From positions 1-61,109 of the forward strand of contig JBBTCW010000003.1 in the NCBI GenBank assembly GCA_038043025.1: 61,109 nt of DNA, in the 5' to 3' direction. The notes under the pieces were generated by a model. The model was not told the DNA's origin and did no database searches. It saw only the letters and a program-made list of their open reading frames with translations. Numbering within the stretch: the stretch's first letter is position 1; every line of letters begins with the position of its first letter. The DNA is from Pseudomonadota bacterium. Lineage in GTDB: Bacteria; Pseudomonadota; Gammaproteobacteria; UBA12402. Positions 9,082 through 60,350 of this stretch are shown one piece after another. A program made the position numbers and the translations under genes.

Positions 9082-9256
9082 CGAGCTCTGAGCTGCTAAT
9101 GTGCAAAAAATATACTTGCCAGCTCTGAGCTGCTGAGAGCTAGTCATGGCAAGGGTTTTACTCCCCCCTCGCAGCTCTGAGCGGCTGAGAAACGCGCGCG
9201 CAGCTCTGAGCTGCCGAAATCCAGTCGTAGCAAGGAGTATAGCAGCTCAGAGCTGC
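9082..9256. repeat. Five copies of the 15-bp palindrome GCAGCTCWGAGCTGC
   Basis: Copies start at 9082, 9119, 9171, 9200 and 9242 in the ftsX-rpoH spacer. Confidence 0.9.
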
Positions 9257-9274
9257 TGAGAAATAATTAGCGAA

Positions 9275-10222
9275 TTAGCGGGGGGTGTCGACGTTTCGAA
9301 TATAGCGAGATACAGACAGTCTCGAGCCAAAATAGCCAAGCAGCATGCCGCCGCCGAGTAGCAAGACGGTTAAGCGTAGATTAAGCCCAGTGATGTTGAA
9401 GGTGGCACCGTATAAATTGGCGAGCTCCGTCATGGGGTTTTGCAATGTCCAAATTACCCCGCTAATTAATAACCAGGCGATGATGCCACCGAATAAACCA
9501 TAAAACATGCCATTATATAAAAAAGGGCGAGCAATAAATCGGTTGGTTCCACCCAGCAATTTAATCACGCGAATTTCATCTTGATAATTTTGCGTGTTGA
9601 GACGAATAGTATAAGAAATAATAAGCAAAACAGCAAAGAAAAATATTGTCATGATCACGTAAGCGAGATGATGGCCAAAAAGCACCATCGCATTTAATTT
9701 ATTTAACCAATTCATATCGAGCTGAGCTGAGTCTACGTTGTGGATGTTTTCGAGTTGCGTTAATAAATTTTGTGCTTGCGCGGTCGTGTTGATGGAAGGT
9801 TTCGGATAAACAATAAAAACACCGGGCAATGGGTTATCTTTTAATTCTGCTAACACATCACCGAAGCCGGCTTGTTGTTGAAATTCTTTTAAGCCGTTTT
9901 CTGGCGAGATATATTGAAAGTTTTGAATATCAGAATTTGCACGCAGTGTTTGTTCCAACTGTGTGATTTGATCGGTTGAGACGTTCATATTTGTGTATAG
10001 TGTAATTTGCGCGCTGTTATGTAGATTATGGCTGATAACCTGTATATTTTTTAAGAATACGAACAAACCCATGGGCAGTGTGAGTACAACACCGATCACA
10101 ATGCAAGTTAACAATGCGGTAACCGGTGTTATGGTAAAATGTTTTAAGCTTGTTTTTAAGGCTTTTTTATGTTGTGAAATATAATGTACAATCGGCGAAT
10201 GATGTAAGGATTTGTTAAACAT
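9275..10222 (-). CDS. ftsX: Cell division permease FtsX
   Basis: IGVVLTLP TM1, NPLP, and EI.VIKLLGGT..FI.RPFLY.G; start uncertain (10222 or 10240). Confidence 0.93.
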   Translation of the reverse strand: MFNKSLHHSPIVHYISQHKKALKTSLKHFTITPVTALLTCIVIGVVLTLPMGLFVFLKNIQVISHNLHNSAQITLYTNMNVSTDQITQLEQTLRANSDIQNFQYISPENGLKEFQQQAGFGDVLAELKDNPLPGVFIVYPKPSINTTAQAQNLLTQLENIHNVDSAQLDMNWLNKLNAMVLFGHHLAYVIMTIFFFAVLLIISYTIRLNTQNYQDEIRVIKLLGGTNRFIARPFLYNGMFYGLFGGIIAWLLISGVIWTLQNPMTELANLYGATFNITGLNLRLTVLLLGGGMLLGYFGSRLSVSRYIRNVDTPR

Positions 10223-10898
10223 AAATGGTTTCCTTCGCATCTTCGACGAGTTGACCCGTTTGTAATTTTAAGGTGCGATAAGATAAATGCTCGATGACAT
10301 GCGTGTTATGTGATGCAATTAATAACGTTGTGCCCAGTTGATTAAATTGTTCGAGTAAATCAATAATTTCTTTTGATAATTCGGGATCTAAGTTACCCGT
10401 GGGTTCGTCGGCCAGAATAATCGATGGTCGATGAACAATGGCGCGCGCAATGCCAACGCGCTGTTGCTCGCCACACGATAAGTCCTCGGGTTTTTCTTTT
10501 TCATATTCCAATAAGTTCACTTTATCTAATGCCGCGCGCACACGACGGTTAATTTCATGTTGACGAAATCCAGTAATAACGAGCGGTAATGCGACATTAT
10601 CAAATACACTACGTTTCAATAAGAGCTGCGGGTTTTGAAAAATCAATCCAATTTGTCGTCGAAACTTGGGGATTTCTCGCTTTTTCATGCGGTTGATGTT
10701 GCGACCATTGATAATGATATCGCCTTTCGACGGATGTTCAAGTGAACCTAATAGGCGGAGCAGGGTGCTTTTTCCCGCGCCCGAATGGCCGGTTAGAAAT
10801 ACCATTTCGCCCGGTTCTATTTTAAATGTTACGCTCGACAAGGCATTAGCCGTATGGCTGTAATGCTTTGTCAGTTGGCTACAATATATCATTGCCAT
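10215..10898 (-). CDS. ftsE: Cell division ATP-binding protein FtsE
   Basis: GHSGAGKST, LSCGEQQRVGIARA and ILADEPTGNLD; between ftsY and ftsX. Confidence 0.95.
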   Translation of the reverse strand: MAMIYCSQLTKHYSHTANALSSVTFKIEPGEMVFLTGHSGAGKSTLLRLLGSLEHPSKGDIIINGRNINRMKKREIPKFRRQIGLIFQNPQLLLKRSVFDNVALPLVITGFRQHEINRRVRAALDKVNLLEYEKEKPEDLSCGEQQRVGIARAIVHRPSIILADEPTGNLDPELSKEIIDLLEQFNQLGTTLLIASHNTHVIEHLSYRTLKLQTGQLVEDAKETIYV

Positions 10899-11053
10899 TT
10901 TGTTGTATCTCAAATATAACTATTCAGCACAATCCAAAAACGTCCATATTTTGGCGCTTTTTGGTGAAAAATCTCTTCAAAATGCTCATGTACTATCGTG
11001 TACACTCCGCTTTTTCATCGATTTTTCACCAAAAATCATCCAAAATCTGAACG

Positions 11054-22906: not shown

Positions 22907-23853
22907 TGAGTCAGTTGTCAAATTTAAAAATCATCTTTGCAGGCACGCCACTCTTTGCTGCCACGCATTTTCAAGCGTTGCTCGATCGTCACTGCTTGAT
23001 TCAAGCTGTCTTAACGCAACCCGATCGCCCCGCGGGTCGCGGAAAACATTTGCAGCAGTCACCGGTAAAACAAATCGCATTAAAGCATGATTTGCCGATT
23101 TATAGTCCGACCACTTTGTGCGATGAAGTCCTACAGGACGCCCTGCAAGAATTTAATGCGGATGTCATGGTGGTTGTTGCTTATGGATTGATACTGCCCG
23201 AAGCGGTTCTATCCATGCCTCGACTGGGCTGTGTCAATGTGCATGCGTCATTGTTACCCAAGTATCGCGGCGCATCTCCTATTCAGCAAGCGATTTTATC
23301 AGGCGATGCCGAAACGGGTATTACGGTGATGAAAATTATCAAAGCGCTGGACGCAGGGCCGATGTTATTACAATCACGCTGTGCGATTGAGAAGACGGAC
23401 ACTGCCGAGACGTTATCAAAAAAATTGGCGCAGCTGGGCGCAGAGACTCTTTTAAAAACATTAGACAGGGGTTTAGTGAATGCAGAAGCGCAAGATGAGA
23501 CGCAAGCAACCTATACTAAAAAAATTGATAAATCAGATGCCAGAATTGATTGGAATAAATCGGCGATTGATCTTGATCGAGAAATTCGCGCATTTAATCC
23601 CTGGCCCATTTCATTCACTGAAATGAATGGCGAACGCATTCGCATCTGGCAAGCCACACCGCTCGCCGAGACACATCATAAGAAACCGGGGCAAATTATT
23701 TCGGCGAACCCGGTGGGTATTGGTGTCGCAACGGGCGAGGGTGTTTTACAAATTCAGCAGTTGCAATTATCGGGCGGAAAAAAATTACCTGTTTCTGCCG
23801 TGTTAAATGGCAAGCCGGCGTTATTTCAAATTGATCGTCGGTTTGATTTATGA
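22903..23853 (+). CDS. fmt: Methionyl-tRNA formyltransferase
   Basis: FAGTP, TQPDRPAGRG, VVAYG, NVHASLLPKYRGASPI and IRAFNPWP. Confidence 0.98.
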   Translation: MMSQLSNLKIIFAGTPLFAATHFQALLDRHCLIQAVLTQPDRPAGRGKHLQQSPVKQIALKHDLPIYSPTTLCDEVLQDALQEFNADVMVVVAYGLILPEAVLSMPRLGCVNVHASLLPKYRGASPIQQAILSGDAETGITVMKIIKALDAGPMLLQSRCAIEKTDTAETLSKKLAQLGAETLLKTLDRGLVNAEAQDETQATYTKKIDKSDARIDWNKSAIDLDREIRAFNPWPISFTEMNGERIRIWQATPLAETHHKKPGQIISANPVGIGVATGEGVLQIQQLQLSGGKKLPVSAVLNGKPALFQIDRRFDL

Positions 23854-25157
23854 CCCCACGTCTTTTTGCGCTTGAAATATTATTTGACCTGTTTATTCAT
23901 CGTCAGTCTTTTTCGAACTTGCAACAAAAACTTCAAACATATCCGAACCCCTCCGAGCGTGCGTATATTCAAGTATTATGTTATGGTGTTGCGCGATGGT
24001 ATTTGCAGTTAGACTTTATTGCGAAGCGGTTATTATCAAAACCATTAAAACAAAAAGATCAAAATATTTATATATTAATTTTAATCGGTTTGTATGAATT
24101 ACTTTATACTCAAACGCCAGATTATGCGGTGGTCACTGAAGTGGTGAATACAGCGCGAGCGTTAAAAAAACCTTGGGCGCAGGGTTTAATCAACGCCGTA
24201 TTGCGAAATTTTTTACGACGCAAAAAAAAGGAACTGTTGAAAACAGTCAGTGACAATGAAGTGGCCAGTTATTCGCATCCCGAATGGCTATTGACGCGAT
24301 TAAAAAAAGAATATCCTCATGCGTGGAAAGAAATTGTAACAGCAAACAATCAACATCCGCCGATGAGTTTGCGCGTTAATCGAAACAAAATCTCGCGTGA
24401 CGAGTATGGCGAAAAATTGCGACACGTTGGGCTGCGCGGAAATATTTTGCAAGATTATAGCGATGCGATTTTATTAGAAAAGCCATGCGCAGTAGGACAA
24501 TTGCCAGGGTTTTCTGAAGGTGACGTGTCTGTGCAAGACTGTGGTGCGCAATTAGCGGTAACGTTATTAGATTTAAAACCCGATCAGCGCGTGTTAGATG
24601 CGTGTGCTGCGCCGGGCGGCAAGACCTGTCATATTTTGGAGTACGAGCCAAATATTTCGACATTAGTGGCGATCGATCATGATGCAAAGCGCCTTGCGCT
24701 CGTACGAGAAAATCTCGCTCGCAGCTCTGAGCAGGGGAAATCCAGTGCTGGCGCGGCTTCCGGCTGCTCAGAGCTCATTGCCGGTGATGCAGCGGAGCCC
24801 GATGCTTGGTGGGATGGAAAAGTTTTTGATCGCATTTTGCTGGATGCGCCTTGTTCTGCGACAGGCGTGATTCGCCGACATCCCGATATCAAATTTTTAC
24901 GTCGCGAAGAAGACATTGCAACGTTAGCAAAGACTCAGTTACGCCTCTTACAAGCATTGTGGTTGTTATTGAAGCCGGGAGGAAAGCTGCTGTATGTGAC
25001 TTGTTCGGTTTTAGCGGAAGAAAATCAACAGGTGATTCAAAAATTTTTGCATCAAAACCAACTCGATCTGAGTGTTCTAGTGCATGAACAACAGCTTTTG
25101 CCGACCGTTGGCGGTTCTGATGGATTTTATTACGCGTGTTTAACTAAGATCTTGTAA
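23850..25157 (+). CDS. rsmB: 16S rRNA m5C967 methyltransferase with an in-frame repeat insertion
   Basis: NusB-like N-domain; VQD, DACAAPGGKT, DAPCSATG.IRRHPD and YVTCS. Confidence 0.96.
   Translation: MTPRLFALEILFDLFIHRQSFSNLQQKLQTYPNPSERAYIQVLCYGVARWYLQLDFIAKRLLSKPLKQKDQNIYILILIGLYELLYTQTPDYAVVTEVVNTARALKKPWAQGLINAVLRNFLRRKKKELLKTVSDNEVASYSHPEWLLTRLKKEYPHAWKEIVTANNQHPPMSLRVNRNKISRDEYGEKLRHVGLRGNILQDYSDAILLEKPCAVGQLPGFSEGDVSVQDCGAQLAVTLLDLKPDQRVLDACAAPGGKTCHILEYEPNISTLVAIDHDAKRLALVRENLARSSEQGKSSAGAASGCSELIAGDAAEPDAWWDGKVFDRILLDAPCSATGVIRRHPDIKFLRREEDIATLAKTQLRLLQALWLLLKPGGKLLYVTCSVLAEENQQVIQKFLHQNQLDLSVLVHEQQLLPTVGGSDGFYYACLTKIL
24721..24777. repeat. Degenerate 57-bp palindrome pair inside the rsmB coding sequence
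   Basis: GCAGCTCTGAGCAGG-27nt-GCTGCTCAGAGCTCA; 42-bp spacing and inner AAATCCAGT as in intergenic copies. Confidence 0.85.
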
Positions 25158-26195: not shown

Positions 26196-26261
26196 ACTGC
26201 TCTGAGCTGGCGATGGGCGCGGAATGCAGTCGCAGCCTGCCTGATAGCAGCTCAGAGCTGG
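26196..26261. repeat. Palindrome pair (GCAGCTCWGAGCTGC family)
   Basis: Arms at 26196 and 26247; inner CAGTCGCAGCCTGCCT. Confidence 0.85.
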
Positions 26262-29906: not shown

Positions 29907-32005
29907 GATGCGCCAATCTGCAATAAAGAAATGTCGGCGACTTTTAAGAAGAGTTCGCGCAGTTTTACCAAAAGCGCTAATCGATTTTGTTGTAGCTTTG
30001 GATCCTCGTCCATCACCATGACCGTTTCGAAAAATCGATCGACGGGGTCGCGCAATTGTGCAAGATCAATTAATAATCCAGTGTAATCACAATTTTTTTC
30101 AAATGCGGCAACCGTTTCAATTCTTTTGCTGATGTCGCGCGCGAGTTGAATTTCGGCCGATTCTTTCAAGAGATCCATTTTAAATACATGCTTTAATATA
30201 CCCGCTTCATTTTTAATAAGTATGTTTTTAACGCGCTTGTTAGCGGCAGCTAAACTTTCTGCTTCGGGTAACGTCGCAAAATGTTGAACGGCTTTTAGAC
30301 GCGCATGAAATAAAACTAAATCTTCATGCCAAATTGGCCCGCCGAGCGTTGCATGATATTGGTCGAGCGTAAAGCCGTTTTGCCCAACCCACGTTGCTAA
30401 GCGATCTAAAATAAATGTGCCCAGCGTGACGCCGAGATGTTCTTTGGGTAGCGGATGATCGGAATGTTTGTAAATGTTATAGGTTTCTTTGATTAACTCA
30501 TTTAAATTTAAATGCAATTCATGTTCAATCATGATACGAATCAACCCGAATGCAGCGCGACGCAATGCAAACGGATCTTTGGTGCCCGTTGGAATTTGAT
30601 TGATGCCAAACATACCGACGAGCGTGTCAATGCGATCCGCAATGGCGAGCGCTTGGCCGGTCGCTGTTTGGGGTAAGTCATCTGTCGCAAAACGCGGCAT
30701 ATATTGCTCTTTTAATGCGATCGCGACGGTTTCAGGCTCGTTGTCATGCCGTGCATAGTATTCACCCATGATGCCTTGTAGTTCGGGAAATTCTCCGACC
30801 ATGCTCGTCATCAGATCTGTTTTAGACAGCAAAGCAGCGCGTTCAATATCAGTGATTTTAAAGTGTAATTGTTTTGCAATATAACCCGACAATTTTTGTA
30901 GACGTTGCGTTTTATTTAATAATGTCCCGAGTTGTTTTTGAAAAACCACATGACCTAATTGATCGATATAAATGTTGAGCGGATGTTTTAAGTCTGTTTC
31001 ATAAAAGAATTTTGCATCCGAAAGTCGTGCGCGCATCACGCGCTCATTGCCGCTGATAATATATTTTGTGCGATACGGTTTGATGTTGGCGATCGCAATA
31101 AAATTTGGTAATAACTGATTGGATTGATCAACAACTGGGAAACAGCGCTGATGTTTTTCCATCGAGGCGATTAATACTTCTTTGGGTAAGCTTAAAAAAT
31201 CGTTTGAAAATTTAGCTAACAGCGCCATCGGCCATTCAGTGGATGCGGTCACTTCATCTAATAACGCGTCGTTGATTACCGGGGAGCCAATGCGCTGGGC
31301 TGCATGAATGGTTTGTGTTCGAATGATGTTTTTGCGTTCGTTGAAATCCACGTACACATGCGCATATTTTTTAAGTGTTTTAATATAGGCTTTTGCGGAT
31401 GAAATGGTAATCGGCGAGGTGTTATAAAAACGATGGCCTTGTGTTTTGTTGCTCGTCGTTTTTTCTAAAATGATGCCTGGCACAATTTTTCGGCCATACA
31501 TCAAAATAATGCCATGCACCGGCCGTTCAAAAGTAATGTCATGATCGCCCCAGCGCATTTGTTTTTTAATGGGTAATTTTTTTATTGCTTCGGTGACAAT
31601 GTCTGGCAAACAATCAAAAATTGATTTACCGGGTTCGGTTTTTTTGAAATATAAACATTCACCTTTTGGCGTATCGAGTCGCTCGAGTTGTTCGACAGAT
31701 ACGTCACAGGATTTTGCAAACCCTGTTGCTTGTGGTTTGGGCGCACCGTCGGGAAAAAAAGAGATGGACGACAACGGCCCTTTGCGTTCAATGACTTGAT
31801 CGGGTTGTTTGGCCGTAACGTTATTTAAAATAACGACTAATCGGCGTGGCGTGGCGAGCAATGCGTCGTCGAGTTCATACTCGAAGCCCGATGTTTTTAA
31901 ACCTTCAGCAATAGATTCTTTAAGGCTCATGGCGAGCCGCGTCAAATTTTTTGGCGGTAGTTCTTCGGTTAAAATTTCGAGCAACAAGTCGGCTTTTTTT
32001 GTCAT
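29903..32005 (-). CDS. glyS: Glycine-tRNA ligase beta subunit
   Basis: [43 protein letters not shown] and KDPFALRR. Confidence 0.98.
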
Positions 32006-32971: not shown

Positions 32972-33028
32972 GCAGCTCTGAGCTGACGCAAGGCAGACTG
33001 TGACTGGGTTATATCAGCTCAGAGCTGT
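32972..33028. repeat. 57-bp palindrome pair R1
   Basis: GCAGCTCTGAGCTGA-cgcaaggcagactgtgactgggttata-TCAGCTCAGAGCTGT. Confidence 0.9.
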
Positions 33029-34764: not shown

Positions 34765-34821
34765 GCAGCTCTGAGCTGCTGCAAGGCAGGCTGTGACTGG
34801 GTTATAGCAGCTCAGAGCTGT
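34765..34821. repeat. 57-bp palindrome pair R2 (duplication junction)
   Basis: GCAGCTCTGAGCTGC-tgcaaggcaggctgtgactgggttata-GCAGCTCAGAGCTGT. Confidence 0.9.
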
Positions 34822-36614: not shown

Positions 36615-36671
36615 ACAGCTCTGAGCTGCTATAATCCAGTCACAGCCTGCCTTGTAGCAGCTCAGAGCTGC
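36615..36671. repeat. 57-bp palindrome pair R3 (inner segment inverted relative to R1/R2)
   Basis: ACAGCTCTGAGCTGC-tataatccagtcacagcctgccttgta-GCAGCTCAGAGCTGC. Confidence 0.9.
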
Positions 36672-38327: not shown

Positions 38328-38843
38328 TCAACAGTTAATACCACCAAAACAAAACGCATCAATAAATACAGCCACTGTATTTAAACGCATTGATATAACT
38401 TTTTTGTTTGAAATATCTTCGGCTTGATAACTAAGAGTACGTTTTTTGGCATTATATGTGGGATATGCCAAACGTAAAACCATCACCTCTTGATCCGATT
38501 TTCCTGACAAAGTATAAACAAAACTGGCATTAGGATTAATATCAGCAAAGTCATTAACTTTGTTATTCCAGTGCGAGACAAATTTGCTCGTTTTCAGCAC
38601 ACCTGCTTTGCGCGCTGGGCGATCAGTAAACCAGGTGGTATGCGAACCCACGTCAAATAGTGTTAATAGATAAAGGTTGGGCTTTTTATCTATTGGCATA
38701 ATATGGGCTGATTTTGCCGTTTGAGTAAAAAGATAACTCACTGGCTTGCCTTGAACGGTTTCCGCCTTCATGGGCATCGATGCCCATGCGGCCGCGCTCA
38801 ACAACAATATTAATAATATACAATATTGACAAACTCGCTTCAT
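38328..38843 (-). CDS. Conserved-looking secreted hypothetical protein
   Basis: Signal peptide after AGGAGA RBS; YLF.Q.A, LTL, WFTDRP.R.AG, NPNAS and FID pattern. Confidence 0.65.
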   Translation of the reverse strand: MKRVCQYCILLILLLSAAAWASMPMKAETVQGKPVSYLFTQTAKSAHIMPIDKKPNLYLLTLFDVGSHTTWFTDRPARKAGVLKTSKFVSHWNNKVNDFADINPNASFVYTLSGKSDQEVMVLRLAYPTYNAKKRTLSYQAEDISNKKVISMRLNTVAVFIDAFCFGGINC

Positions 38844-38921
38844 AACGTTTCTCCTATAAAATTTCATTTGTACATTCTACCACAACTTAAGATGTTTTAC
38901 TTCTACTCTACCCTCTGAGCA

Positions 38922-41453: not shown

Positions 41454-41492
41454 TTTTTATTTTACCTTTTTATGTGGGTTAATCGAGCGCGT

Positions 41493-50344: not shown

Positions 50345-50347
50345 CGC

Positions 50348-53679: not shown

Positions 53680-54946
53680 TGTGCATCACGTTACACGTGT
53701 TGAGGGACACGGTAATATTAGCGTCGATCTTGAGAAAGGAAAGATTTTAAAGTGCCAACTCGCCATTGTCGAGGCGCCACGTTTTTTTGAAGCGATGTTG
53801 CGTGGTCGGCATTATGATGAAACGATTATTGTGTCGAGTCGCATTTGCGGTATTTGTTCGGTCGGGCATCAGTTGGCCGCATTGCGTGCGATTGAAGATG
53901 CGTTTAATGTTAAGATTTCTGAACAAGAAAAATGTTTGCGTCGCTTATTAAATTGTGGTGAGTTTTTTGAAAGTCATGTATTACATATTTATTTTTTAGC
54001 GATGCCGGATTTTAAAGGTGTTAAATCAATTTTTCCGCTCGCGAAAACGAATAAAGATGTGGTGGTGCATGCGTTAAACTTAAAACGATTTGGACATTAC
54101 ATTGGTGGTGTTATTGGCGGTCGCTTAATTCATTCAACGGCGACGGATGTTAAGGCGATGTCTAAATTGCCGACAAAAAAAGAATTAGAAGAAGTACTAA
54201 AACGCTTGCACGAAGCAAAAGAAGAGTTAAAACAAGGCGTTTCTATTTTAAAAGGCTTAAAGTTTCCAGCATTTGAGCGAGAAACAGAATATATTTCTCT
54301 GCAGAAAAAAGGAGTTTATGCCTCATTAGAAGGTAACATTTATTCCAGTGATGTCGGTGAAATTCCGTATAAAAATTATCGTGATGTCGTGAATGAATAT
54401 ATAGTGGATTATGCGACCGCCAAGCGCGCAAAACATAATCGCGCGTCATACATGGTGGGCGCCTTAGCGCGGTTTAATAACAATGGACAATGGTTATCGG
54501 ATGACGCCAAACAAATTGCACAAGATTTAGGATTGAAGTCGCCGTGTTATAATGCTTATTTAAATACCGTTGCGCAGTTTGTTGAGCTTGTGCATGTGGC
54601 GGATGATTCTATTGCAGCGGCAAAGAGTTTGTTAAACATGGATTTGAAATTAGAAGAACGTTCCCTCACCGTTACTCCAGGCTCGGGTGTGGGTGCTGTT
54701 GAAGTGCCGCGCGGGACGTTATATCACGAATATGTTTTTAATGAGAAAGGGATTGTTACAGATGCAAATTGTGTTATCCCAACGGGTCAGAACGTCAATA
54801 ATATTGAAGAAGATTTTAAAGCATTATTGCCAAGCATTTCTAAAAAATCCCAGAAAGAGATTACGCTTTTATTAGAAATGCTCGTGCGTGCTTACGATCC
54901 TTGTATTTCTTGTTCGGCGCATATGTTGGATGTTGAGTTTGTGTAA
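53666..54946 (+). CDS. Group 3b [NiFe]-hydrogenase large (alpha) subunit
   Basis: TRVEGHG, EAPRFFE, L1 SRICGICS.GH, EVPRG.L.H, L2 RAYDPCISCSAH plus a 7-aa cleavable tail; start after AAGGAG. Confidence 0.95.
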   Translation: MTKIDVHHVTRVEGHGNISVDLEKGKILKCQLAIVEAPRFFEAMLRGRHYDETIIVSSRICGICSVGHQLAALRAIEDAFNVKISEQEKCLRRLLNCGEFFESHVLHIYFLAMPDFKGVKSIFPLAKTNKDVVVHALNLKRFGHYIGGVIGGRLIHSTATDVKAMSKLPTKKELEEVLKRLHEAKEELKQGVSILKGLKFPAFERETEYISLQKKGVYASLEGNIYSSDVGEIPYKNYRDVVNEYIVDYATAKRAKHNRASYMVGALARFNNNGQWLSDDAKQIAQDLGLKSPCYNAYLNTVAQFVELVHVADDSIAAAKSLLNMDLKLEERSLTVTPGSGVGAVEVPRGTLYHEYVFNEKGIVTDANCVIPTGQNVNNIEEDFKALLPSISKKSQKEITLLLEMLVRAYDPCISCSAHMLDVEFV

Positions 54947-54948
54947 AT

Positions 54949-55398
54949 ATGTCCCACACATTAATTCTTTCCATCGGAAATTTATTACGCCATGACGATG
55001 GTGTTGGTCCGACCGTATTAAAATTATTATCTGAATATCCAAAGCCGAACGTTGATTATGTGAATGGCGGCACGGACGGATTGGCGCTGATTGATTTAAT
55101 TTCGTCATATAAAAAAGTGACCATTATTGACGCGGTGAACATGCAAATGCCGCCGGGAACGATAAAGCGATTCAAGCCAAAAGACGCCAAGATTCATGTA
55201 AAATCGGATGTGCTTTCGACACATGGTTTTGGTTTAGTCGAAGTGTTAGACTTGTTGGTGCAATTAGGAGTTGAGACAGAAATAGATATTATTGGCATTC
55301 AGCCAAAAGATATTTCGTTAGGCGAAGGGTTAAGCGATTGCATACGAGATTGTCTCAACGACGTCATCACCCTCATCGCAGCTCCAGCTCAGAGCTGA
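54949..55398 (+). CDS. Hydrogenase maturation endopeptidase
   Basis: IGNLLR.DDGVG, GGT.G, IIDAV, STHG.GL, GIQP and GLS; the last codons and stop come from the palindromic repeat. Confidence 0.92.
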   Translation: MSHTLILSIGNLLRHDDGVGPTVLKLLSEYPKPNVDYVNGGTDGLALIDLISSYKKVTIIDAVNMQMPPGTIKRFKPKDAKIHVKSDVLSTHGFGLVEVLDLLVQLGVETEIDIIGIQPKDISLGEGLSDCIRDCLNDVITLIAAPAQS

Positions 55399-55504
55399 CG
55401 AAATCGGGTGGCGGGAGAGGCTTGCTATGACTCTCTTGCAGCAGCTCAGAGCTGCGTGGATTAAAATTTTGTATGATATTGCTTACATCGCAGCTCAGAG
55501 CTGC
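55378..55504. repeat. Three-copy palindrome array (spacings 57 and 49 bp)
   Basis: Copies at 55384, 55441 and 55490, plus an extra half-site at 55378; homologous to 58425-58545. Confidence 0.9.
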
Positions 55505-55520
55505 CGTACCGGGTGAAAAT

Positions 55521-56828
55521 ATGTGCTATGCGATTCCAGGACAATTAATCGAAATTCGCAAAAATGGCGGCGGGGTGGTCGATTACTTTGGTGAAAAACG
55601 TAATATCTTATTAGACCTCAGCGATGCCGCAGTGGGTGATTATGTTTATGCGCAGGGCGGTATTTTAGTTCGCAAAATTCCCACGGCAGAAGCCTTAGAA
55701 ATTTTGTCTCTCTGGAAAGATAAATTTTTTGAATTAAAAAAAATGGATGCGCGGTTGTCCCATTTTTCAGAAAGCGACTTGCCGGCCAATACATTACAAA
55801 TTTTACAAAAAGTAAATTTAAAAAAACCGTTATCGCGACAAGACATGCAAGCACTTTTAAAATTGGAAGACCCTCGCGAGTTAAACATATTATATGAATT
55901 AGCGAATCACATCCGGCATCGAGAACATGATAATGCAAGCTGCATTCACGGCATTATCGAGTTTTCAAATTATTGTTGTGAAAATTGTTATTATTGCGGT
56001 ATTCGTTCTGATCGTGTGATCACGCGTTATCGCATGAGCGTCGATGAAATTATTGCTGTTGCGCAACATGCCGTTGATGAATATGGCTTTAAAGCATTAG
56101 TTTTACAGTCAGGTGAAGATCTATGGTATGACAAAAATAGATTAGTAAAAATCGTTCGTGCATTGCGTCAAATGGGCATTTTGGTTTTTTTAAGCATCGG
56201 CATGCGCGACAAACAATTGTATCAAACTTTATATCAAGCCGGTGCGCGTGCCGCGTTATTGCGGTTTGAAACTTCTAATGAAAATATTTTTAAGCGATTG
56301 CGCCCAGCTACTTCCTTGAATGAACGCATAGAATTAATTCAACAGCTAAAATCGATGGGTTATATTATTGCGACGGGGTTTATTGCGGGTTTGCCTGATG
56401 AAACGCCAGAAGATATTGTGAATAACATATTGTTGACGAAATCATTAGATCCCGACATGTATTCATTGGGACCATTCATTCCGACACTGGATACACCGTT
56501 GGCTGCGCACAGTAAATTATCGATGGATGCGGTTTTAAAGATTATTGCATTGACGCGTTTTGTCGATCCAAATTCAAATATTTTGGTGACGACGGCATTA
56601 GAAACATTGGATGCGAGCGCTAAAAAAGCGGCATTATTAGCCGGCGCTAATTCGATGATGATCAATGTGACGCCGATGCAATATCGTGCGCTTTATCAAA
56701 TTTATGATAATCGCGCGGATCGCAATCAAATGGTGAAAGTGGGTATACAAAGTGCGTTAAATTTATTATATTCATTGGGACGTGCGCCGACGGATATAGG
56801 AACATTAAAAGGAGAAATTTATGCCTAA
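55521..56828 (+). CDS. Fusion of a HypC/HupF domain and a HydE-type radical SAM enzyme
   Basis: N-terminal MCYAIPG...VDYFG..R...VGDYV...G......EA.E.L (HypC). Then IIEFSNYC.ENCYYCGIR, RYRM, VLQSGED, LLRFET, GPFIP..DTPL, TTALETL, AGAN and TP..YR..YQIY (HydE-like). One continuous frame. Confidence 0.85.
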   Translation: MCYAIPGQLIEIRKNGGGVVDYFGEKRNILLDLSDAAVGDYVYAQGGILVRKIPTAEALEILSLWKDKFFELKKMDARLSHFSESDLPANTLQILQKVNLKKPLSRQDMQALLKLEDPRELNILYELANHIRHREHDNASCIHGIIEFSNYCCENCYYCGIRSDRVITRYRMSVDEIIAVAQHAVDEYGFKALVLQSGEDLWYDKNRLVKIVRALRQMGILVFLSIGMRDKQLYQTLYQAGARAALLRFETSNENIFKRLRPATSLNERIELIQQLKSMGYIIATGFIAGLPDETPEDIVNNILLTKSLDPDMYSLGPFIPTLDTPLAAHSKLSMDAVLKIIALTRFVDPNSNILVTTALETLDASAKKAALLAGANSMMINVTPMQYRALYQIYDNRADRNQMVKVGIQSALNLLYSLGRAPTDIGTLKGEIYA

Positions 56829-57285
56829 AATATTTTCGATCAAAGAAATTTTACAATTCGCGGTTGAAAAGGAACATGAAAGCCAAGAATTATATCAAGC
56901 GCTTGCGGCGCAAGTCGGCAACCCAGATGCCAAATCCTTGTTCAAAGAATTTGTGATACAAGAGAAAAAACACGAAGATCTATACAAAAACATGTTAGCA
57001 AATATTGACGAATATCAGCATATTAATGATCTCGACGAGTATATGTCTTATATGCATGAGTTAATTAACACAAGCCATCCAGAAAGTGGAACGTCATCCG
57101 TGGCGCATATGAAATGTTTATCCGATATATTAGATTATGCAGTTTTACGCGAAAAAGAATCGGTATTGTTTTATGTCGGGTTGCGTGATTATGTCTCCGC
57201 GCCGTATCAAGCGCAGGTTGACGCCATCATTAAAGAAGAAGTGCAACATATCGTGCAGTTGTCGGGGCTCAAGAAAGCGATTTAA
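56821..57285 (+). CDS. Ferritin-like / rubrerythrin-family diiron protein
   Basis: A...E......Y...EKKH and A..RE..S..FY...EE..H repeated helix pairs; overlaps the fusion gene stop. Confidence 0.85.
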   Translation: MPKIFSIKEILQFAVEKEHESQELYQALAAQVGNPDAKSLFKEFVIQEKKHEDLYKNMLANIDEYQHINDLDEYMSYMHELINTSHPESGTSSVAHMKCLSDILDYAVLREKESVLFYVGLRDYVSAPYQAQVDAIIKEEVQHIVQLSGLKKAI

Positions 57286-57331
57286 AGTGAAAAATCCCCG
57301 CCGCTTGCTCCGGAGCTATCGAGTATTTTCT

Positions 57332-57871
57332 TTATGTGGTTGGTTTAAGACTGAGAACTGTGACATCAGCGGGATCAGACGGGGGCCGACCGGAAGCTCT
57401 TGCCAGGTACTGCTCTACGGCCGCTGCTAGTACTTCAATTTCTGCTTTTTGTTTTTCCAATTCTGCTGCTTGTTTGTCCAGTTTTTTTTCCAATTCAGCT
57501 GTTCGCTTTTTCTCTTCTGCTGTTTGTTTTTCCCGTTCTGCTGCTTGTTTTTTCCATTCTGCTGATTGTTTTTCCCATTCTGCTGCTCGCTTTTCCCGTT
57601 CTGCTGCTTGTTTTTCCCGTTCTTTTTCCCATTCTGCTGTTTTTTTTTCCCATTCTGCTGCTCGTTTTTCCCGTTCTGCTGCTCGCTTTTCCCGTTCTGC
57701 TGCTTGTTTTTCCATAGCATCAATTTCTGCTATCTCTGGACGGGGAGCCAGGTTTGCTTCTATTTTTGCCAGAAGCTCTTCGCTGGTATGGGCTTTAGCA
57801 TCGATCATATCGCGGGACATATCACGCATTTCTCTATCGGGATCGGGTCGTTTCTGCTTTCCTTTGAACAT
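57332..57871 (-). CDS. Hypothetical coiled-coil protein with 7-aa tandem repeats
   Basis: EK(Q/R/K)(A/T/S)AE(R/W/L) heptads; this frame has unique flanks and gives a plausible protein. Confidence 0.6.
   Translation of the reverse strand: MFKGKQKRPDPDREMRDMSRDMIDAKAHTSEELLAKIEANLAPRPEIAEIDAMEKQAAEREKRAAEREKRAAEWEKKTAEWEKEREKQAAEREKRAAEWEKQSAEWKKQAAEREKQTAEEKKRTAELEKKLDKQAAELEKQKAEIEVLAAAVEQYLARASGRPPSDPADVTVLSLKPTT
57460..57712. repeat. Degenerate 21-bp tandem repeat
   Basis: Units such as TTTTTCCCGTTCTGCTGCTCG / TTTTTCCCATTCTGCTGCTTG, about 10-11 copies. Confidence 0.85.
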
Positions 57872-57941
57872 AATTTTTTCAACAATACTTAATTAATAAT
57901 CTGATGATATCATAACAAATATTTTTGAATAATCATTCAAA

Positions 57942-58331
57942 TTATTTCGAAGCGCCCGCGCCTGGAGGAGTCCAGCCGGGAGGCACATCACATTCTTCTA
58001 TGCGTACATTGCGTACATTGCGTACATTCAGATTTGCAAGATCAGAATATAACGTGTCTTGGAAGAAGGTTTGGGGTGCCGCCAACAGACCGACTGTGGG
58101 TAAATCCGCGATAGCATCCGCGATAGCATGTGCTTGCTTACGAAAATCGGCCGTTTCTTTGTTTATTTTGTTTCTACCGCGCTGCATTGCTGCTTGAAAA
58201 ATTCTGTAATTGAGACGGAAAAAAACGTCGTCGAGAGGGATAAGAGCCAAATCGAGAGGGACATCGCGTGAGGGGGGAATTGGACTCATTTTGAATTCTA
58301 TTTCTATTTCCTTTGTTGTACCGCCTGGCAT
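57942..58331 (-). CDS. Hypothetical protein
   Basis: AGGAGA RBS before the ATG; in-frame micro-duplications (9 bp x3 at 58001-58027, 12 bp x2 at 58104-58127); no recognisable family. Confidence 0.45.
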   Translation of the reverse strand: MPGGTTKEIEIEFKMSPIPPSRDVPLDLALIPLDDVFFRLNYRIFQAAMQRGRNKINKETADFRKQAHAIADAIADLPTVGLLAAPQTFFQDTLYSDLANLNVRNVRNVRIEECDVPPGWTPPGAGASK

Positions 58332-58424
58332 AATTTTCTCCTAGTTGATTAATCTGACAGCATTATAACATCGAATTCTTAAGGAAATATTAAGGGCGTA
58401 AAAAAATCGGCAAGCTTAGCTATA

Positions 58425-58587
58425 GCAGCTCAGAGCTGCGAAAAGTAGGTGTCGGGAAGGGCTTGCTATGACTGCTTTCCAGAAGCTCAGAGCTGCGTGG
58501 ATTAAAATTTTGTATGATATTGCTTACATCGCAGCTCTGAGCTGCTAAAAACCAGTCACAGCCTGGCTCTCATTGGCTCAGAGCTGC
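58425..58587. repeat. Four-copy palindrome array (spacings 57, 49 and 42 bp)
   Basis: Copies at 58425, 58482, 58531 and 58573. Confidence 0.9.
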
Positions 58588-58592
58588 AGCGG

Positions 58593-60257
58593 TTAATAAT
58601 TAGGTTCCCACATATTAGCCAAAATCGCTTTTTTTATATCGGTTCTATGTGCAAATGGTGCAAATGCAACGCCTTCTGCAATTGCTTGTTCGGCGACAGC
58701 GACGGCAATGTCAAAACAAATTTCTCGAATATGGGTTAAGTCTGGTAAAAGCGATCCATAGACATCCTGTTGTGCGGGCGAATGTTTGGTGAGCGTACGG
58801 CTCGCCGCAGCAAACATGTCATGTGTGATGCGTTTTGCTTTTACTGAAATCACGCCTAAACCAAGCCCTGGGAAAATAAATAAATTATTGCATTGCGCAA
58901 TCGGCGTTTTTTTGCCGCTAATTATTTCATCGGGAAAAGGACTGCCGGTCGCGATCAACGCTTTACCATTTGTCCAGTTTAATAAATCATGTGGTGTAGC
59001 TTCGGTTTTTGAATGGGGATTCGATAATGCTAAAATAATTGGGCGCGGGGTGTATTTGACCATTGTTTTTATGATCGTTTCGGTAAACGCGCCTTTTACA
59101 GTAGAACAACCTACCAAAATAGTCGGTTTAACGTGACGCACCACTTCAAATAGGTCAACATGCGAGACATTTTTTAATTTCCATTCTGCCATCGCATTTT
59201 TTGATTTGGCATACGGTTTTTGAAAATCCATTAAATTATCCATGTCTTGCATCAAAAGACCGCGGCGGCCTAACAACCAAATGCGAGCTTGCGCGGCTTC
59301 CAATGACAGCCCGCGCTTTACCATAATTTTTACGATAAAATCCGCAATGCCGGTGGCTGCAGTGCCTGCGCCAAAAAACACAATACATTGTTGTGTGATA
59401 TCCTGGTGTATCGTTTGTAATGCGGATTCGATAGCGCTAAAAGCAACCGCCGCGGTGCCTTGCATATCATCATTAAACGTACACATCGTATTTTGATAGC
59501 GATCGAGATGTTTGCGCGCCGTATCTCTGCCAAAATCTTCCCAATGTAATAAAACATCAGGAAATATTTTTTTAATTGTTATAACGCATTGATCAATGAA
59601 ATGATCGTACTTTTGTCCAGTGAGGCGCTCATGGCGCCAGCCAAGATATAATGGATCATTTAATAATGTTTTATTATTTGTACCGATGTCGATGCAAATG
59701 GGTAAGGTGCGTGATGGATGTATGCCTGCGCATAATGTATAAAGCGCAAGTTTTCCGATGCATAAGCTTATGCCTCCTACGCCATGATCGCCAATACCTA
59801 AGATGCGTTCACCATCGGTGATAATAATGATATCGATATTGGCGTGATCATATCTTCTTAAAACTTCTTCCATCGAATCGCGTTCCGGATAAGAAAGAAA
59901 TAATCCGCGCGGTCGCTGAAAGATGTGATTAAAATGCTCGACAGCCTCACTGACAACTGGCGTGTAAATAATGGGTAACATTTCTGTGACATGATCATAG
60001 GCTAATTTATAAAATAATATTTCGTTTTGATTAAGTATGTTAGTGAGATAAATGTTTTTATCGAGCAAAGTAGGTTGTCGTTTAAATTCTTGATAACAGC
60101 GCGCACATTGCTCTTCGATTGTTTCAACGCGCGTCGGCAATAATCCGGTTAAATTAAATAGCTCGCGTTCGGTCGAGGTAAACGCCGAGCCTTTATTGAA
60201 ACGACTATCGTTTAATAGCGCTTGACCCGAGATGTTGGTTTTTGGGATGGTTGTCAT
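58593..60257 (-). CDS. maeA: NAD-dependent malic enzyme
   Basis: NKGSAFT..ER, PIIYTP, TDGERILGIGD, EDF, FNDDMQGTA, GAG.A..GIA, LSNP and QCNN.FIFPG. Confidence 0.95.
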   Translation of the reverse strand: MTTIPKTNISGQALLNDSRFNKGSAFTSTERELFNLTGLLPTRVETIEEQCARCYQEFKRQPTLLDKNIYLTNILNQNEILFYKLAYDHVTEMLPIIYTPVVSEAVEHFNHIFQRPRGLFLSYPERDSMEEVLRRYDHANIDIIIITDGERILGIGDHGVGGISLCIGKLALYTLCAGIHPSRTLPICIDIGTNNKTLLNDPLYLGWRHERLTGQKYDHFIDQCVITIKKIFPDVLLHWEDFGRDTARKHLDRYQNTMCTFNDDMQGTAAVAFSAIESALQTIHQDITQQCIVFFGAGTAATGIADFIVKIMVKRGLSLEAAQARIWLLGRRGLLMQDMDNLMDFQKPYAKSKNAMAEWKLKNVSHVDLFEVVRHVKPTILVGCSTVKGAFTETIIKTMVKYTPRPIILALSNPHSKTEATPHDLLNWTNGKALIATGSPFPDEIISGKKTPIAQCNNLFIFPGLGLGVISVKAKRITHDMFAAASRTLTKHSPAQQDVYGSLLPDLTHIREICFDIAVAVAEQAIAEGVAFAPFAHRTDIKKAILANMWEPNY

Positions 60258-60278
60258 GCGTACCTCGTGTTACTGGCT

Positions 60279-60350
60279 GCAGCTCTGAGCTGCGAGGATT
60301 GACCCCTTTCTATTCCTTGCCCCGCCTGCTTTGTAGCAGCTCAGAGCTGC
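60279..60350. repeat. Palindrome pair (57-bp spacing)
   Basis: Perfect copies at 60279 and 60336, each followed by GAGGATT; the second continues GGATTAAAATTTTGTA as in the 55.4 and 58.5 kb arrays. Confidence 0.9.

What the first reader, a model, noticed from the sequence alone, without database searches (positions are those of the whole stretch)
9082..60350. Dispersed modular repeat family built on the 15-bp palindrome GCAGCTC(A/T)GAGCTGC with fixed spacings
Seen: about 24 copies at 9 loci (9082-9256 x5, 24721 x2, 26196 x2, 32972 x2, 34765 x2, 36615 x2, 55384 x3, 58425 x4, 60279 x2), never alone. Start-to-start spacing is 42 bp six times, 57 bp three times and 49 bp twice. In every 42-bp pair the left arm has a central T and the right arm a central A, so each arm is self-palindromic and the pair also forms a long hairpin. 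Linkers share an asymmetric motif (A)ATCCAGTCRYAGC found in either orientation. The arms have no GTAG or CGTC tag, unlike the two ordinary REP classes also in this window. Inference: this is a mosaic element analogous to BIMEs or neisserial dRS3/RS arrays, probably recognised by a dimeric protein or recombinase; 42 bp is four helical turns. It often borders accessory genes. No cognate enzyme is in the window.
Basis: partly seen in the sequence, partly recalled or inferred. Interest (0 to 1): 0.8.

Follow-up and report, generated by a model that had tools for sequence, protein, structure and literature searches.

The report
Palindromic repeat family with cognate transposase
A 15-base palindrome that sits in fixed-spacing clusters between the genes of this small groundwater bacterium is a REP/REPIN-type selfish repeat family, and the enzyme that probably moves it, a single-copy tyrosine transposase flanked by the same repeats, lies on another contig, so this is a new example of a known kind of element.

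Summary
The window has 10 exact and 24 near (up to 3 mismatches) copies of GCAGCTCWGAGCTGC at 9 loci, with spacings of 42 (x6), 57 (x3) and 49 (x2). Shuffles give 0.05 copies. The genome (1.62 Mb) has 184 copies, and the same modes dominate: 42 x31 and 57 x33. The sister species repeats the pattern. None of the 12 other genomes of the order has a copy.

The 42-bp pairs are 57-nt hairpins, that is inverted doublets or REPINs. The 57-bp pairs are direct tandem units that end in a conserved tail, GGATTAAAATTTTGTAAG. Copies are almost all extragenic.

The genome has one Y1/HUH transposase gene (contig C51, between miaA and mutL). It passes NCBI's RAYT model, keeps the HUH and Tyr residues, and its predicted fold is closest to E. 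coli TnpA-REP. A 42-type hairpin lies upstream of it and a 57-type array with tail lies downstream, in both species.

My verdict is a BIME-like REP/REPIN family without GTAG or CGTC tags, served by a divergent RAYT whose relatives are of the "TIRYT" kind. Mobility itself is not shown: 32 of 36 mappable loci are occupied in both species.

Also seen: one copy lies in frame inside rsmB, and a second family that expanded recently shares the core CAGCTCAGAG.

The parts
9082..9256 (.). Array of 5 palindromes (spacings 37, 52, 29, 42). The last two form a 57-nt hairpin. It lies between a sigma-70-family gene (8175-9038, -) and ftsX (9275-10240, -).
   Evidence: The orthologous locus in the sister genome also has 5 copies.
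24721..24777 (.). Degenerate 42-type hairpin (2 and 3 mismatches) lying in frame inside rsmB (23850-25157, +). It encodes ...SSEQGKSSAGAASGCSE...
   Evidence: The protein is 8-11 residues longer here than in 9 homologues from other genera. The same insert is present in the sister species.
26196..26261 (.). 51-spaced T-then-A pair (36-nt linker) between a PQ-loop gene and a GMP-reductase/IMPDH-family gene.
   Evidence: A 51-spaced pair sits at the orthologous site of the sister genome.
32972..33028 (.). 57-nt hairpin (42-type, REPIN-like) between glyQ (32002-32928, -) and an unknown 555-aa gene.
34765..34821 (.). 57-nt hairpin between two paralogous unknown genes (33037-34704 and 34830-36548, 62% identical).
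   Evidence: (dG -19.5 kcal/mol, z -4.1).
36615..36671 (.). 57-nt hairpin between the 572-aa unknown gene and a HAD hydrolase gene.
   Evidence: dG -20.7 kcal/mol, z -5.8; 0 of 200 shuffles fold as well.
55384..55504 (+). Composite of A-palindrome, 42-nt linker, A-palindrome, 34-nt tail (GGATTAAAATTTTGTATG...CTTAC) and A-palindrome. The first palindrome holds the stop codon of a HycI-type protease gene.
58425..58587 (+). Composite of a 57 unit, the 49 tail unit and a 42 hairpin (palindromes at 58425, 58482, 58531, 58573). It lies upstream of the malic enzyme gene's 3' end (58593-60257, -).
   Evidence: The sister genome has one more 42 unit at this site.
60279..60370 (+). 57-spaced pair (here T then A) followed by the tail GGATTAAAATTTTGTAGG (60353-60370). 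It lies between the malic enzyme gene and coaD (60409-60927, +).

Best explanation
The repeats are a REP/REPIN-type family of non-autonomous, hairpin-forming extragenic elements with a BIME-like modular build.

The unit is the 15-nt palindrome together with about 25 conserved bases on one side (...CCTTGCTRTGACTGnnTTnCA-GCAGCTCAGAGCTGC). There are three main arrangements:
- Two units head to head give the 57-nt hairpin (spacing 42).
- Units in tandem give the 57-nt period.
- Tandem arrays end in a 34-nt A/T-rich tail (spacing 49).

The family is tied to one single-copy Y1/HUH tyrosine transposase of the RAYT kind. Its gene lies outside the window (genome contig C51:1439-2053, between miaA and mutL) and is itself bracketed by a 42-type hairpin and a 57-type array with tail.

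Inferred mechanism: the enzyme binds the folded single-stranded hairpin and cuts and rejoins it with its catalytic tyrosine, so copies spread slowly. They spread mostly to nearby intergenic regions. Arrays then grow and shrink by recombination between palindromes.

Shown: the repeat grammar, its hairpin potential, its extragenic position, its restriction to one genus, the enzyme's family, its intact catalytic residues, purifying selection on it, and its flanking by the repeats in two species. Inferred: that this enzyme binds, cuts or moves these repeats.
For: Repeat statistics and fixed spacings are seen in two genomes.

Extragenic position. 112 of 146 copies lie strictly between crude ORF calls in a genome that is 90% coding. 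Of the other 34, 2 overlap an ORF end and 31 lie at ORF ends or in ORFs of <=111 aa made of the repeats. Only one lies deep in a real gene.

Hairpin. The fold energy is -20.7 kcal/mol with z -5.8. Core pairs 4-12 are paired in 50 of 50 distinct elements. The linker stem is paired in 0.706 of cells, against 0.665 +/- 0.013 in shuffles and 0.20-0.47 when slid. T-A/G-C and A-T/T-A alternatives occur at pairs 16-42 and 18-40. One compensatory change is seen between orthologous copies.

Enzyme:
- It is the only PF01797 match in the genome.
- NCBIfam 'REP-associated tyrosine transposase' scores 87 bits against a cut-off of 80.
- H60, H62 and Y119 are invariant in an alignment with 9 relatives.
- The predicted fold is closest to 4ER8, E. 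coli TnpA-REP on a REP hairpin (E 5e-7, TM 0.59), followed by the IS608, ISDra2 and IS200 transposases.
- dN/dS is 0.25 against the sister-species orthologue.

Association:
- The gene is one of 12 of 1112 internal ORFs with repeats on both flanks.
- Its contig has the highest copy density, 12 copies in 12.3 kb.
- The same gene order and the same two flank types occur in the sister genome.
- Repeats and this enzyme occur together only in this genus. 2 of 14 genomes of the order have the palindrome. The other family members' matches score below cut-off or belong to other RAYT types.
- No rival enzyme was found: DDE_Tnp_1 0, TnpB-type 0, one weak rve match and two tyrosine recombinases, all on contigs without copies.

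Local copying. 6 of 9 neighbouring hairpins (<=3 kb apart) share >=24 of 27 linker bases, against 6 of 628 distant pairs.

Literature. RAYT genes flanked by non-GTAG repeats, including self-complementary ones found in dimers and clusters, are described (PMC3733652, section 16, read).
Against: No transposition event was seen. 32 of 36 mappable loci of this genome are occupied in the sister genome, and at least 29 of 35 the other way. The few occupied-versus-empty sites have diverged flanks and no exact boundaries.

The enzyme only just passes the RAYT model, at 87.7 bits against about 125-200 bits for classical RAYTs of the class. It lacks the C-terminal helix-turn-helix part that its 45-50% identical relatives have. 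Sequence-only searches against solved structures are blank or weak (4ER8 at E 0.054). The structural model is of middling confidence (mean pLDDT 66.7).

The repeats lack the GTAG tag of classical RAYT substrates.

The asymmetric modules show no bias relative to GC skew: 13 v 13, 15 v 10, 14 v 12 and 15 v 16. A single-strand, replication-linked mechanism might be expected to show one.

Being flanked on both sides is not unique to the enzyme gene; 11 other genes share it.

The genome holds several other repeat families and only this one transposase, so a repeat family here need not have its own enzyme.
Confidence: 0.7

Rival explanations
1. The family is a relic. It spread in the ancestor of the genus and no longer moves. 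The transposase gene is kept for another, host-level role, and present variation comes only from recombination, slippage and gene conversion between palindromes.
For: 32 of 36 and at least 29 of 35 mappable loci are shared between two species with about 85-92% DNA identity in the aligned stretches. About half of the shared loci differ only in module number; 17 of 36 and 18 of 35 have the same number. No clean new insertion was found. Near-identical strains in three other public runs carry the composites unchanged where a contig spans them. Passages of PMC5581495 describe RAYTs as single-copy, vertically inherited, domesticated genes.
Against: The gene is under purifying selection with intact catalytic residues. 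Neighbouring copies that are 27 of 27 identical in the linker argue for recent copying. A few loci are present in only one species. A second family with the same 10-nt core has multiplied since the species split.
Confidence: 0.25
2. The palindromes are mainly host-function sites, independent of any transposase. They would be binding sites for a dimeric DNA-binding or nucleoid protein, or RNA hairpins that end or stabilise transcripts.
For: Copies are almost all extragenic. Their positions are conserved between species. The core is a perfect dyad and invariant at positions 4-12. Tail-bearing composites point the same way as both neighbouring genes in 13 cases and against both in 5. The abstract of PMC3733652 reports REPs as mostly downstream of genes and plausibly acting as RNA elements.
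Against: No terminator-like or promoter-like call falls on the three composites of 54000-61109, apart from one 9-of-12 promoter-like match that starts in the last palindrome. No run of T follows the hairpins. Copies also lie between divergent genes and inside rsmB. The family is confined to one genus, which is unusual for a host factor's regulon. A site for a duplex-binding dimer would not need the conserved asymmetric linkers. This reading can be true in addition to the main one.
Confidence: 0.15
3. The elements are MITEs of a DDE transposon, or recombination sites of a tyrosine recombinase system, for example integron-like cassette sites that bracket single genes.
For: Similar 57-nt hairpins bracket single genes in the same orientation at several loci. 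57 nt is within the size range of integron attC sites (recalled, not tested).
Against: There is no DDE_Tnp_1 match. The single weak rve match and the two Phage_integrase matches lie on contigs with no copy. The bracketed genes include core genes such as coaBC, thyA and an ABC-F ATPase. No target-site duplication is visible at the sites that differ between species. I saw no attC-type core sites at the ends of the elements, which are the palindrome itself (reading).
Confidence: 0.03

Closest known systems
REPIN-RAYT systems (Pseudomonas fluorescens and E. coli REP doublets with single-copy RAYT; PMC3116915 and PMC3337134 seen as search listing and abstract starts only; PMC5581495 passages)
   Same: A short palindromic repeat that is highly over-represented and extragenic. 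Inverted doublets fold into one long hairpin. There is a single-copy Y1/HUH transposase gene flanked by the repeats. Gene and repeat loci are inherited vertically and shared between sister species.
   Different: There is no GTAG tag. The core is a perfect 15-nt self-complementary sequence, so direct and inverted pairs can both pair. The enzyme scores only just above the RAYT model's cut-off, and by the relatives found it is closest to a different branch.
E. coli BIMEs (mosaics of REP units and fixed linker motifs; composition recalled, not read here) with TnpA-REP (structure 4ER8)
   Same: A small set of palindromic units is combined with a few conserved linkers of fixed length into dimers and tandem arrays. 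The best structural match of the enzyme model is 4ER8.
   Different: The sequences differ. Here one palindrome serves in all positions rather than alternating Y and Z types, and a conserved A/T-rich tail closes the tandem arrays. Binding of host proteins is untested.
TIRtrons / TIRYTs of Di Nocera, De Gregorio and Rocco 2013 (PMC3733652, section 16 read), including the self-complementary repeat family tied to Stenotrophomonas maltophilia ORF 1152
   Same: A tyrosine transposase gene is flanked by non-GTAG repeats. The repeats form a moderately abundant family, are self-complementary and lie close together in dimers and clusters. The 45-50% identical relatives of this enzyme carry flanking inverted motifs of the GGGGTCAGGTCTTG type, which fit the paper's GGGGWSAS consensus.
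   Different: The flanks of this gene do not carry GGGGWSAS. The protein is about 80 residues shorter than those relatives, with no C-terminal helix-turn-helix part. I could not see the paper's figures or additional files, so I could not compare sequences with the S. maltophilia family.
Intragenic REPs and Rickettsia palindromic elements (PMC3733652 passages)
   Same: A repeat dimer is inserted in frame in a conserved gene and adds a short peptide. The paper gives 20 to 30 amino acids for dimers and grouped repeats. Here the copy is 19 codons, for a net gain of 8-11 residues in RsmB.
   Different: This is a single case in this genome, against many in Rickettsia. The element family is unrelated in sequence.
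Neisserial dRS3/RS mosaic arrays
   Same: Intergenic mosaics of a short inverted repeat with variable units between.
   Different: Those are linked, as recalled, to phage integration and recombination rather than to a flanked Y1 transposase gene. Nothing here supports that link.

Membership tests
REP/REPIN-RAYT system | Short palindromic repeat, strongly over-represented and extragenic | tested here: met
   60 exact and 184 near copies in 1.62 Mb, against none in shuffles of the window. 112 of 146 are strictly intergenic at 90% coding.
REP/REPIN-RAYT system | Inverted doublets that fold into one hairpin (REPIN) | tested here: met
   31 pairs at 42 bp, 29 of them T-then-A. 51 such elements occur in the two genomes. 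Folds reach -19.5 to -20.7 kcal/mol, with 0 of 200 shuffles as good.
REP/REPIN-RAYT system | Single-copy RAYT gene flanked by the family's repeats (REPtron) | tested here: met
   There is one PF01797 match in the genome. A hairpin lies 51 nt upstream of the start, and an array overlaps the 3' end. The layout is the same in the sister genome. 12 of 1112 ORFs share double flanking.
REP/REPIN-RAYT system | Enzyme has the HUH motif, the catalytic Tyr and the RAYT signature | tested here: met
   NF047646 scores 87 bits against a cut-off of 80. H60, H62 and Y119 are invariant. The fold is nearest to 4ER8. The score is marginal next to classical RAYTs.
REP/REPIN-RAYT system | Enzyme binds and cuts the repeat; repeats move | not testable with these tools
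   This needs biochemistry or dated closed genomes. The comparison of two species gave no clean insertion.
GTAG-tagged REP superfamily (PMC3733652) | Unpaired GTAG at one end of the stem-loop | tested here: not met
   5 of 146 and 9 of 146 copies.
CGTC-tagged REP superfamily (PMC3733652) | Unpaired CGTC at one end | tested here: not met
   0 of 146 in each genome. GACG at the other end occurs in 0 and 2 copies.
TIRtron / TIRYT (PMC3733652) | Tyrosine transposase gene flanked by inverted repeats unrelated to GTAG REPs, which may form a repeated family | tested here: met
   Both flanks carry the untagged palindrome family.
TIRtron / TIRYT (PMC3733652) | GGGGWSAS motif in the flanking repeats (one main TIR type) | tested here: not met
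   It is absent from the flanks read. It is present next to 5 or more of the 8 distant relatives (L008, L010, L011, L014, L015).
BIME (E. coli) | Mosaic of palindromic units with a small set of fixed linkers, as dimers and tandem arrays | tested here: met
   Linkers of 27, 42, 34 and 36 nt account for 77 of 91 intervals. Arrays hold up to 5 palindromes. This is a likeness of build, not of sequence.
Rfam RNA families | Match to a curated model | tested here: not met
   0 matches at gathering score in the window.

The most novel reading that the evidence does not exclude
One divergent, shortened RAYT-like enzyme serves at least two outwardly different repeat families that share only the 10-nt core CAGCTCAGAG.

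The first is the old, site-stable palindrome family of this finding. The second is a 104-bp hairpin element that has multiplied about 6- to 13-fold in this species since it split from its sister, and that now breaks the assembly at many contig ends.

The centre of the palindrome would be where the enzyme cuts. At one orthologous site the sister genome has the two ends of the 104-bp element abutted as a perfect 17-nt palindrome.

If so, this 1.6-Mb genome holds a currently active REPIN-type system next to its own fossil record.
Probability: 0.2. Interest if true: 0.6.

Novelty: new member of a known kind. Interest (0 to 1): 0.38.

Why it matters
It extends the REPIN-RAYT picture to an uncultivated gammaproteobacterial lineage from groundwater with a small, 90%-coding genome. 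Room for selfish DNA is scarce there, yet several repeat families thrive.

It gives a clean case of an untagged, perfectly self-complementary REP with a readable modular grammar. It also links such a family to a RAYT of the little-studied branch whose relatives carry GGGGWSAS-type inverted repeats.

Practically, the family explains fixed-spacing palindromes that could be mistaken for regulatory sites. It marks places where assemblies and annotations go wrong, through over-long ORF starts, spurious small ORFs and contig breaks. It also supplies defined substrates (a 57-nt hairpin, a 72-nt direct unit and a tail) for testing how a RAYT without a GTAG guide recognises its DNA.

Tried and rejected
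- Rfam at gathering score on the whole window: no match.
- Consensus promoter and terminator scan of 54000-61109: no terminator-like site on any composite, and only one 9-of-12 promoter-like match that starts in the palindrome at 58573.
- Strand bias of the asymmetric modules against local GC skew: none in either genome.
- Filled-versus-empty sites. I mapped the flanks of 69 clusters (this genome) and 65 clusters (sister genome) onto the other genome. 36 and 35 were mappable. The rest had no flank match, mapped to different contigs, lay at contig ends or mapped too far apart. The handful of one-sided loci have diverged intergenic DNA, so no exact element boundary or target could be read. One 'empty' call (sister C81) was a mapping artefact.
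- phmmer of the enzyme against solved structures: nothing at E <= 0.01. The profile search gave 4ER8 only at E 0.054.
- Sequencing runs: no RNA holder listed.
- Laying contigs of four DNA runs on 54000-61000. The 'joints' link one repeat copy to another and carry linker sequence of other genomic copies, so they are cross-mapping and not deletions. Where a contig of a near-identical strain spans a composite, it is unchanged.
- Literature search for the palindrome string and its 13-nt core: two human-gene papers only.
- Integron-like cassette idea: rejected, because the bracketed genes are a mix of core and unknown genes and no integrase lies near.
- DNA-uptake-sequence idea: rejected on copy number, extragenic restriction and conserved linkers (inference).
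- A wider look for the family outside the 41 relatives and the order was not possible.

Full report
**1. The observation**

GCAGCTCWGAGCTGC occurs 10 times exactly in the window, against none in 100 dinucleotide-preserving shuffles. It occurs 21 times with up to two mismatches, against a shuffle mean of 0.05.

All six 42-bp pairs read central T then central A. The linker motif CCAGTCAYAGC is present in either orientation.

**2. The whole genome and its relatives**

The window is contig C3 of a 1.62-Mb assembly of 79 contigs, 96.5% complete.

- The genome holds 60 exact copies, 146 with up to two mismatches and 184 with up to three.
- Of the 91 intervals of 150 bp or less, 31 are 42 bp, 33 are 57 bp, 8 are 49 bp and 5 are 51 bp.
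- The 42-bp pairs are T-then-A in 29 of 31 cases. The 57-bp pairs are direct (AA or TT) in 32 of 33.
- 28 of 93 clusters are singletons, 17 of them with three mismatches.

I fetched 1.47 Mb of the one other species of the genus held (G001). The last 5.5 kb of one contig was not fetched. It shows the same picture: 180 copies, with 42 bp x24, 57 bp x37, 49 bp x8 and 51 bp x9.

No exact copy is found in the 12 other genomes of the family and order. Among 27 genomes of other families of the class, one has a single copy.

**3. Anatomy**

I orient every copy so that its centre is A. About 25 bases upstream are then conserved (...CCTTGCTRTGACTGnnTTnCA), while the downstream side is not. So the unit is asymmetric although its core is a perfect palindrome. 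Three arrangements account for most clusters.

- (a) The hairpin. T-palindrome, a 27-nt linker (consensus close to tataatCCAGTCACAGCCTGccttata) and A-palindrome make a 57-nt hairpin with a 7-nt loop.
- (b) The tandem unit. A-palindrome plus a 42-nt linker, repeated one to three times and closed by another A-palindrome. The first 27 bases of this linker, read on the other strand, are homologous to the hairpin linker. The 57-nt period therefore equals the hairpin length, with the second arm replaced.
- (c) The tail. A-palindrome, two bases, then GGATTAAAWTTTTGTAAG and a short CTTAC inverted repeat. This is often followed by a further palindrome at 49-50 bp. 27 such tails follow a palindrome in this genome (25 by the looser scan).

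As single-stranded DNA the hairpins fold at -19.5 to -20.7 kcal/mol, and 0 of 200 shuffles fold as well.

I examined 51 hairpins of the two genomes, 50 of them distinct. Pairs 4-12 of the core never vary. The ten linker pairs are paired in 0.706 of cells, against 0.665 +/- 0.013 for shuffled partners (largest 0.716) and 0.20-0.47 for slid partners. T-A/G-C and A-T/T-A alternatives occur at two pairs. One orthologous pair of copies differs by a compensatory T:A to C:G change. The covariation is modest. Related copies inflate such counts.

**4. Position relative to genes**

I used a crude longest-ORF gene call: 1481 ORFs covering 90% of the genome. By that call, 112 of 146 copies are strictly intergenic, 2 overlap an ORF end and 32 lie inside an ORF.

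Of those 32, 31 fall in one of three places:
- within 121 nt of the over-long 5' end of a call;
- within 18 nt of the 3' end, where three copies supply the stop codon;
- in ORFs of 111 aa or fewer made of the repeats themselves.

The exception is window 24721-24777, inside rsmB. The 57-nt hairpin copy is read in frame as SSEQGKSSAGAASGCSE. This makes the protein 8-11 residues longer at that point than 9 homologues from other genera, and the sister species has the same insert. Of the 14 loci, 12 were taken. L149 and L151, a duplicate fragment, were left out. L144 was dropped because my frame-picking motif did not find it. In-frame REP dimers of this kind are already described (PMC3733652 passages).

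In the window the neighbours of the repeats are mostly core genes: a sigma factor, ftsX, glyQ, malic enzyme, coaD and hydrogenase maturation genes. Only three hairpins bracket two unknown paralogues.

**5. The enzyme**

The genome has a single match to Pfam Y1_Tnp (PF01797), on contig C51:1439-2053 between miaA and mutL.

- The 204-aa protein passes NCBI's 'REP-associated tyrosine transposase' model at 87 bits against a cut-off of 80.
- The HUH histidines (H60, H62) and the tyrosine of RYIALNPVRAG (Y119) are invariant in an alignment with nine relatives.
- A model of middling confidence (mean pLDDT 66.7, with the core at 80-90) is closest to 4ER8, E. coli TnpA-REP bound to a REP hairpin (E 5.4e-7, TM 0.59). 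The IS608, ISDra2 and IS200 transposases follow.
- Sequence-only comparison with solved structures is blank or weak (4ER8 at E 0.054, aligned at the HUH and Tyr motifs).

A 42-type hairpin ends 51 nt before the start codon. A 57-57 array with the tail overlaps the 3' end. The sister genome has the same gene (87% identical) in the same place with the same two flank types. dN/dS between the two is 0.25 over 204 codons.

C51 has the highest copy density of all contigs, 12 copies in 12.3 kb. Double flanking is rare but not unique: 12 of 1112 internal ORFs have it.

Other candidate enzymes are scarce:
- DDE_Tnp_1: no match.
- TnpB-type (PF07282): no match.
- rve: one weak match.
- Tyrosine recombinases: two matches.

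The rve and recombinase matches all lie on contigs without a copy.

**6. What kind of RAYT**

Classical RAYTs in the same class score about 125-200 bits on the NCBI model. This one scores 87.7.

The relatives found through shared peptides are 45-50% identical and come from several phyla. They are about 280 aa long with a C-terminal helix-turn-helix part that this protein lacks. Several are flanked by inverted GGGGTCAGGTCTTG-type motifs.

That matches the 'TIRYT/TIRtron' class of Di Nocera and co-workers. Their flanking repeats share GGGGWSAS. According to the section I read, some of those repeats are self-complementary and form moderately abundant families arranged in dimers and clusters, as in S. 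maltophilia ORF 1152 (PMC3733652: outline and abstract, sections 14 and 16). I could not see that paper's figures or additional files.

The repeats here carry neither tag of the two big REP superfamilies. GTAG abuts 5 of 146 and 9 of 146 copies, and CGTC abuts none.

**7. Stability and change**

G001 contig C64 is collinear with window 24806-60986 at 84-93% identity in the long aligned blocks; the paralogue region aligns at about 70%. All six comparable repeat loci are occupied in both genomes, with module differences at three.

Genome-wide, 36 of 69 clusters could be mapped through both flanks. 32 of those are occupied in G001, 17 with the same number of palindromes. In the other direction at least 29 of 35 are occupied, 18 with the same number. 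The one-sided loci have diverged flanks, so no exact boundary, target or duplication could be read. The family therefore predates the species split and turns over slowly, as reported for REPINs (PMC5581495 passages).

Copying does seem to happen locally. 6 of 9 hairpin pairs lying within 3 kb share at least 24 of 27 linker bases, three of them all 27. Only 6 of 628 distant pairs do so. Such pairs bracket single genes of mixed kinds.

**8. Tests that gave nothing**

- Rfam gave no match.
- No terminator-like site falls on the composites.
- The asymmetric modules show no bias relative to GC skew.
- Tail-bearing composites have only a weak preference for the direction of the neighbouring genes. 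13 point the same way as both neighbours, 5 point against both, and 7 are mixed.
- The palindrome string appears in no bacterial paper of the library.

**9. Verdict**

It is a REP/REPIN-type, BIME-like family without GTAG or CGTC tags. The likely cognate enzyme exists but lies outside the window.

The dsDNA and helical-phasing reading is not needed, and the link to accessory genes is weak.

The kind is known, while this family and its enzyme branch are new members. That the enzyme acts on these repeats is an inference from association and from the biology of the family. It has not been shown.

**10. A second family**

The genome also holds a 103-104-bp hairpin element bounded by CTCAGCTCAGAGG...CCTCTGAGCTGAG, with 48-bp and 133-139-bp variants.

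- Its 14-nt end occurs 79 times here, 6 times in G001, and nowhere in the 39 other relatives.
- Many copies lie at contig ends, so the assembly breaks in them.
- It shares the 10-mer CAGCTCAGAG with the focus palindrome. The two families hold 285 of the 322 occurrences of that 10-mer.
- At one orthologous site G001 has the two ends abutted as a 17-nt perfect palindrome where this genome has the full element.

This is one site only. It is the basis of the bolder reading in the novel case.

Noticed in passing
genome contigs other than the window, e.g. G000 C76:2316-2570, C1:115-218, C71:23388-23491: A second, MITE-like hairpin family of 103-104 bp (variants of 48 and 133-139 bp) is bounded by CTCAGCTCAGAGG...CCTCTGAGCTGAG. 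Its 14-nt end occurs 79 times here, 6 times in the sister genome and 0 times in 39 other relatives. Many copies lie at contig ends. It shares the 10-mer CAGCTCAGAG with the focus palindrome. There is none in the window and none on the transposase contig.
   Followed up: partly
G000 C71:23388-23491 versus G001 C31:11726-11742: Where this genome has a full 104-bp element of the second family, the sister genome has its two ends abutted as a perfect 17-nt palindrome, CTCAGCTC-T-GAGCTGAG. This is either an insertion into a palindrome centre or a precise loss of the interior. It is one site only, and each genome has just one such uninterrupted 17-mer.
   Followed up: partly
window 24721-24777 (inside rsmB, 23850-25157): A copy of the 57-nt hairpin is translated in frame within the 16S rRNA methyltransferase RsmB. 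It adds a Ser/Gly/Ala-rich loop that is kept in both species of the genus and is absent from 9 homologues of other genera.
   Followed up: yes
window 33037-34704 and 34830-36548: Two tandem paralogues (62% identical, 555 and 572 aa, no Pfam family) are each bracketed by near-identical hairpins. The sister genome has a single, about 70% identical gene between two hairpins.
   Followed up: partly
window 38279-41483: A stretch with an 843-aa and a 179-aa ORF without any Pfam family is missing from the otherwise collinear contig of the sister genome.
   Followed up: no
window 60927-61109 (contig end): The window ends in a different repeat family (GGAATGACG / CCGGGATCCAG-type hairpins) that has dozens of copies in the sister genome. 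Related abundant words such as CGTCATACCGGCGAAAGCCGGTATCCAG and GATCCCGCGGTCAAGCCGCGGGATGACA occur genome-wide.
   Followed up: no
genome: hairpin pairs at C2:5870/7347, C50:7904/9281, C76:4259/6030, window 32972/34765/36615: Neighbouring hairpins one gene apart have identical or near-identical linkers: 6 of 9 near pairs share >=24 of 27 bases, against 6 of 628 distant pairs. They bracket single genes (coaBC, an ABC-F ATPase, unknown proteins). This points to local copying or gene conversion.
   Followed up: partly
genome contigs C6 (95.9 kb, GC 0.388), C21, C73, C78 and 42 others: 46 of 79 contigs (742 kb) have no copy of the palindrome, including the longest contig, and on average they have a lower GC content. 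This could reflect recently acquired DNA, an uneven spread or binning error.
   Followed up: no
G001 C6:9509-9915, C69:38337-38477, C33:49425-49568, C32:1941-2006: The sister genome has several short, sub-threshold fragments matching the RAYT model besides its intact gene. They may be decayed extra copies.
   Followed up: no
window 55473-56828: The longest ORF here starts inside the repeat composite. It joins a HypC-like part (residues 17-81) to a radical-SAM/BATS part, so the true start and a possible fusion deserve a look.
   Followed up: no
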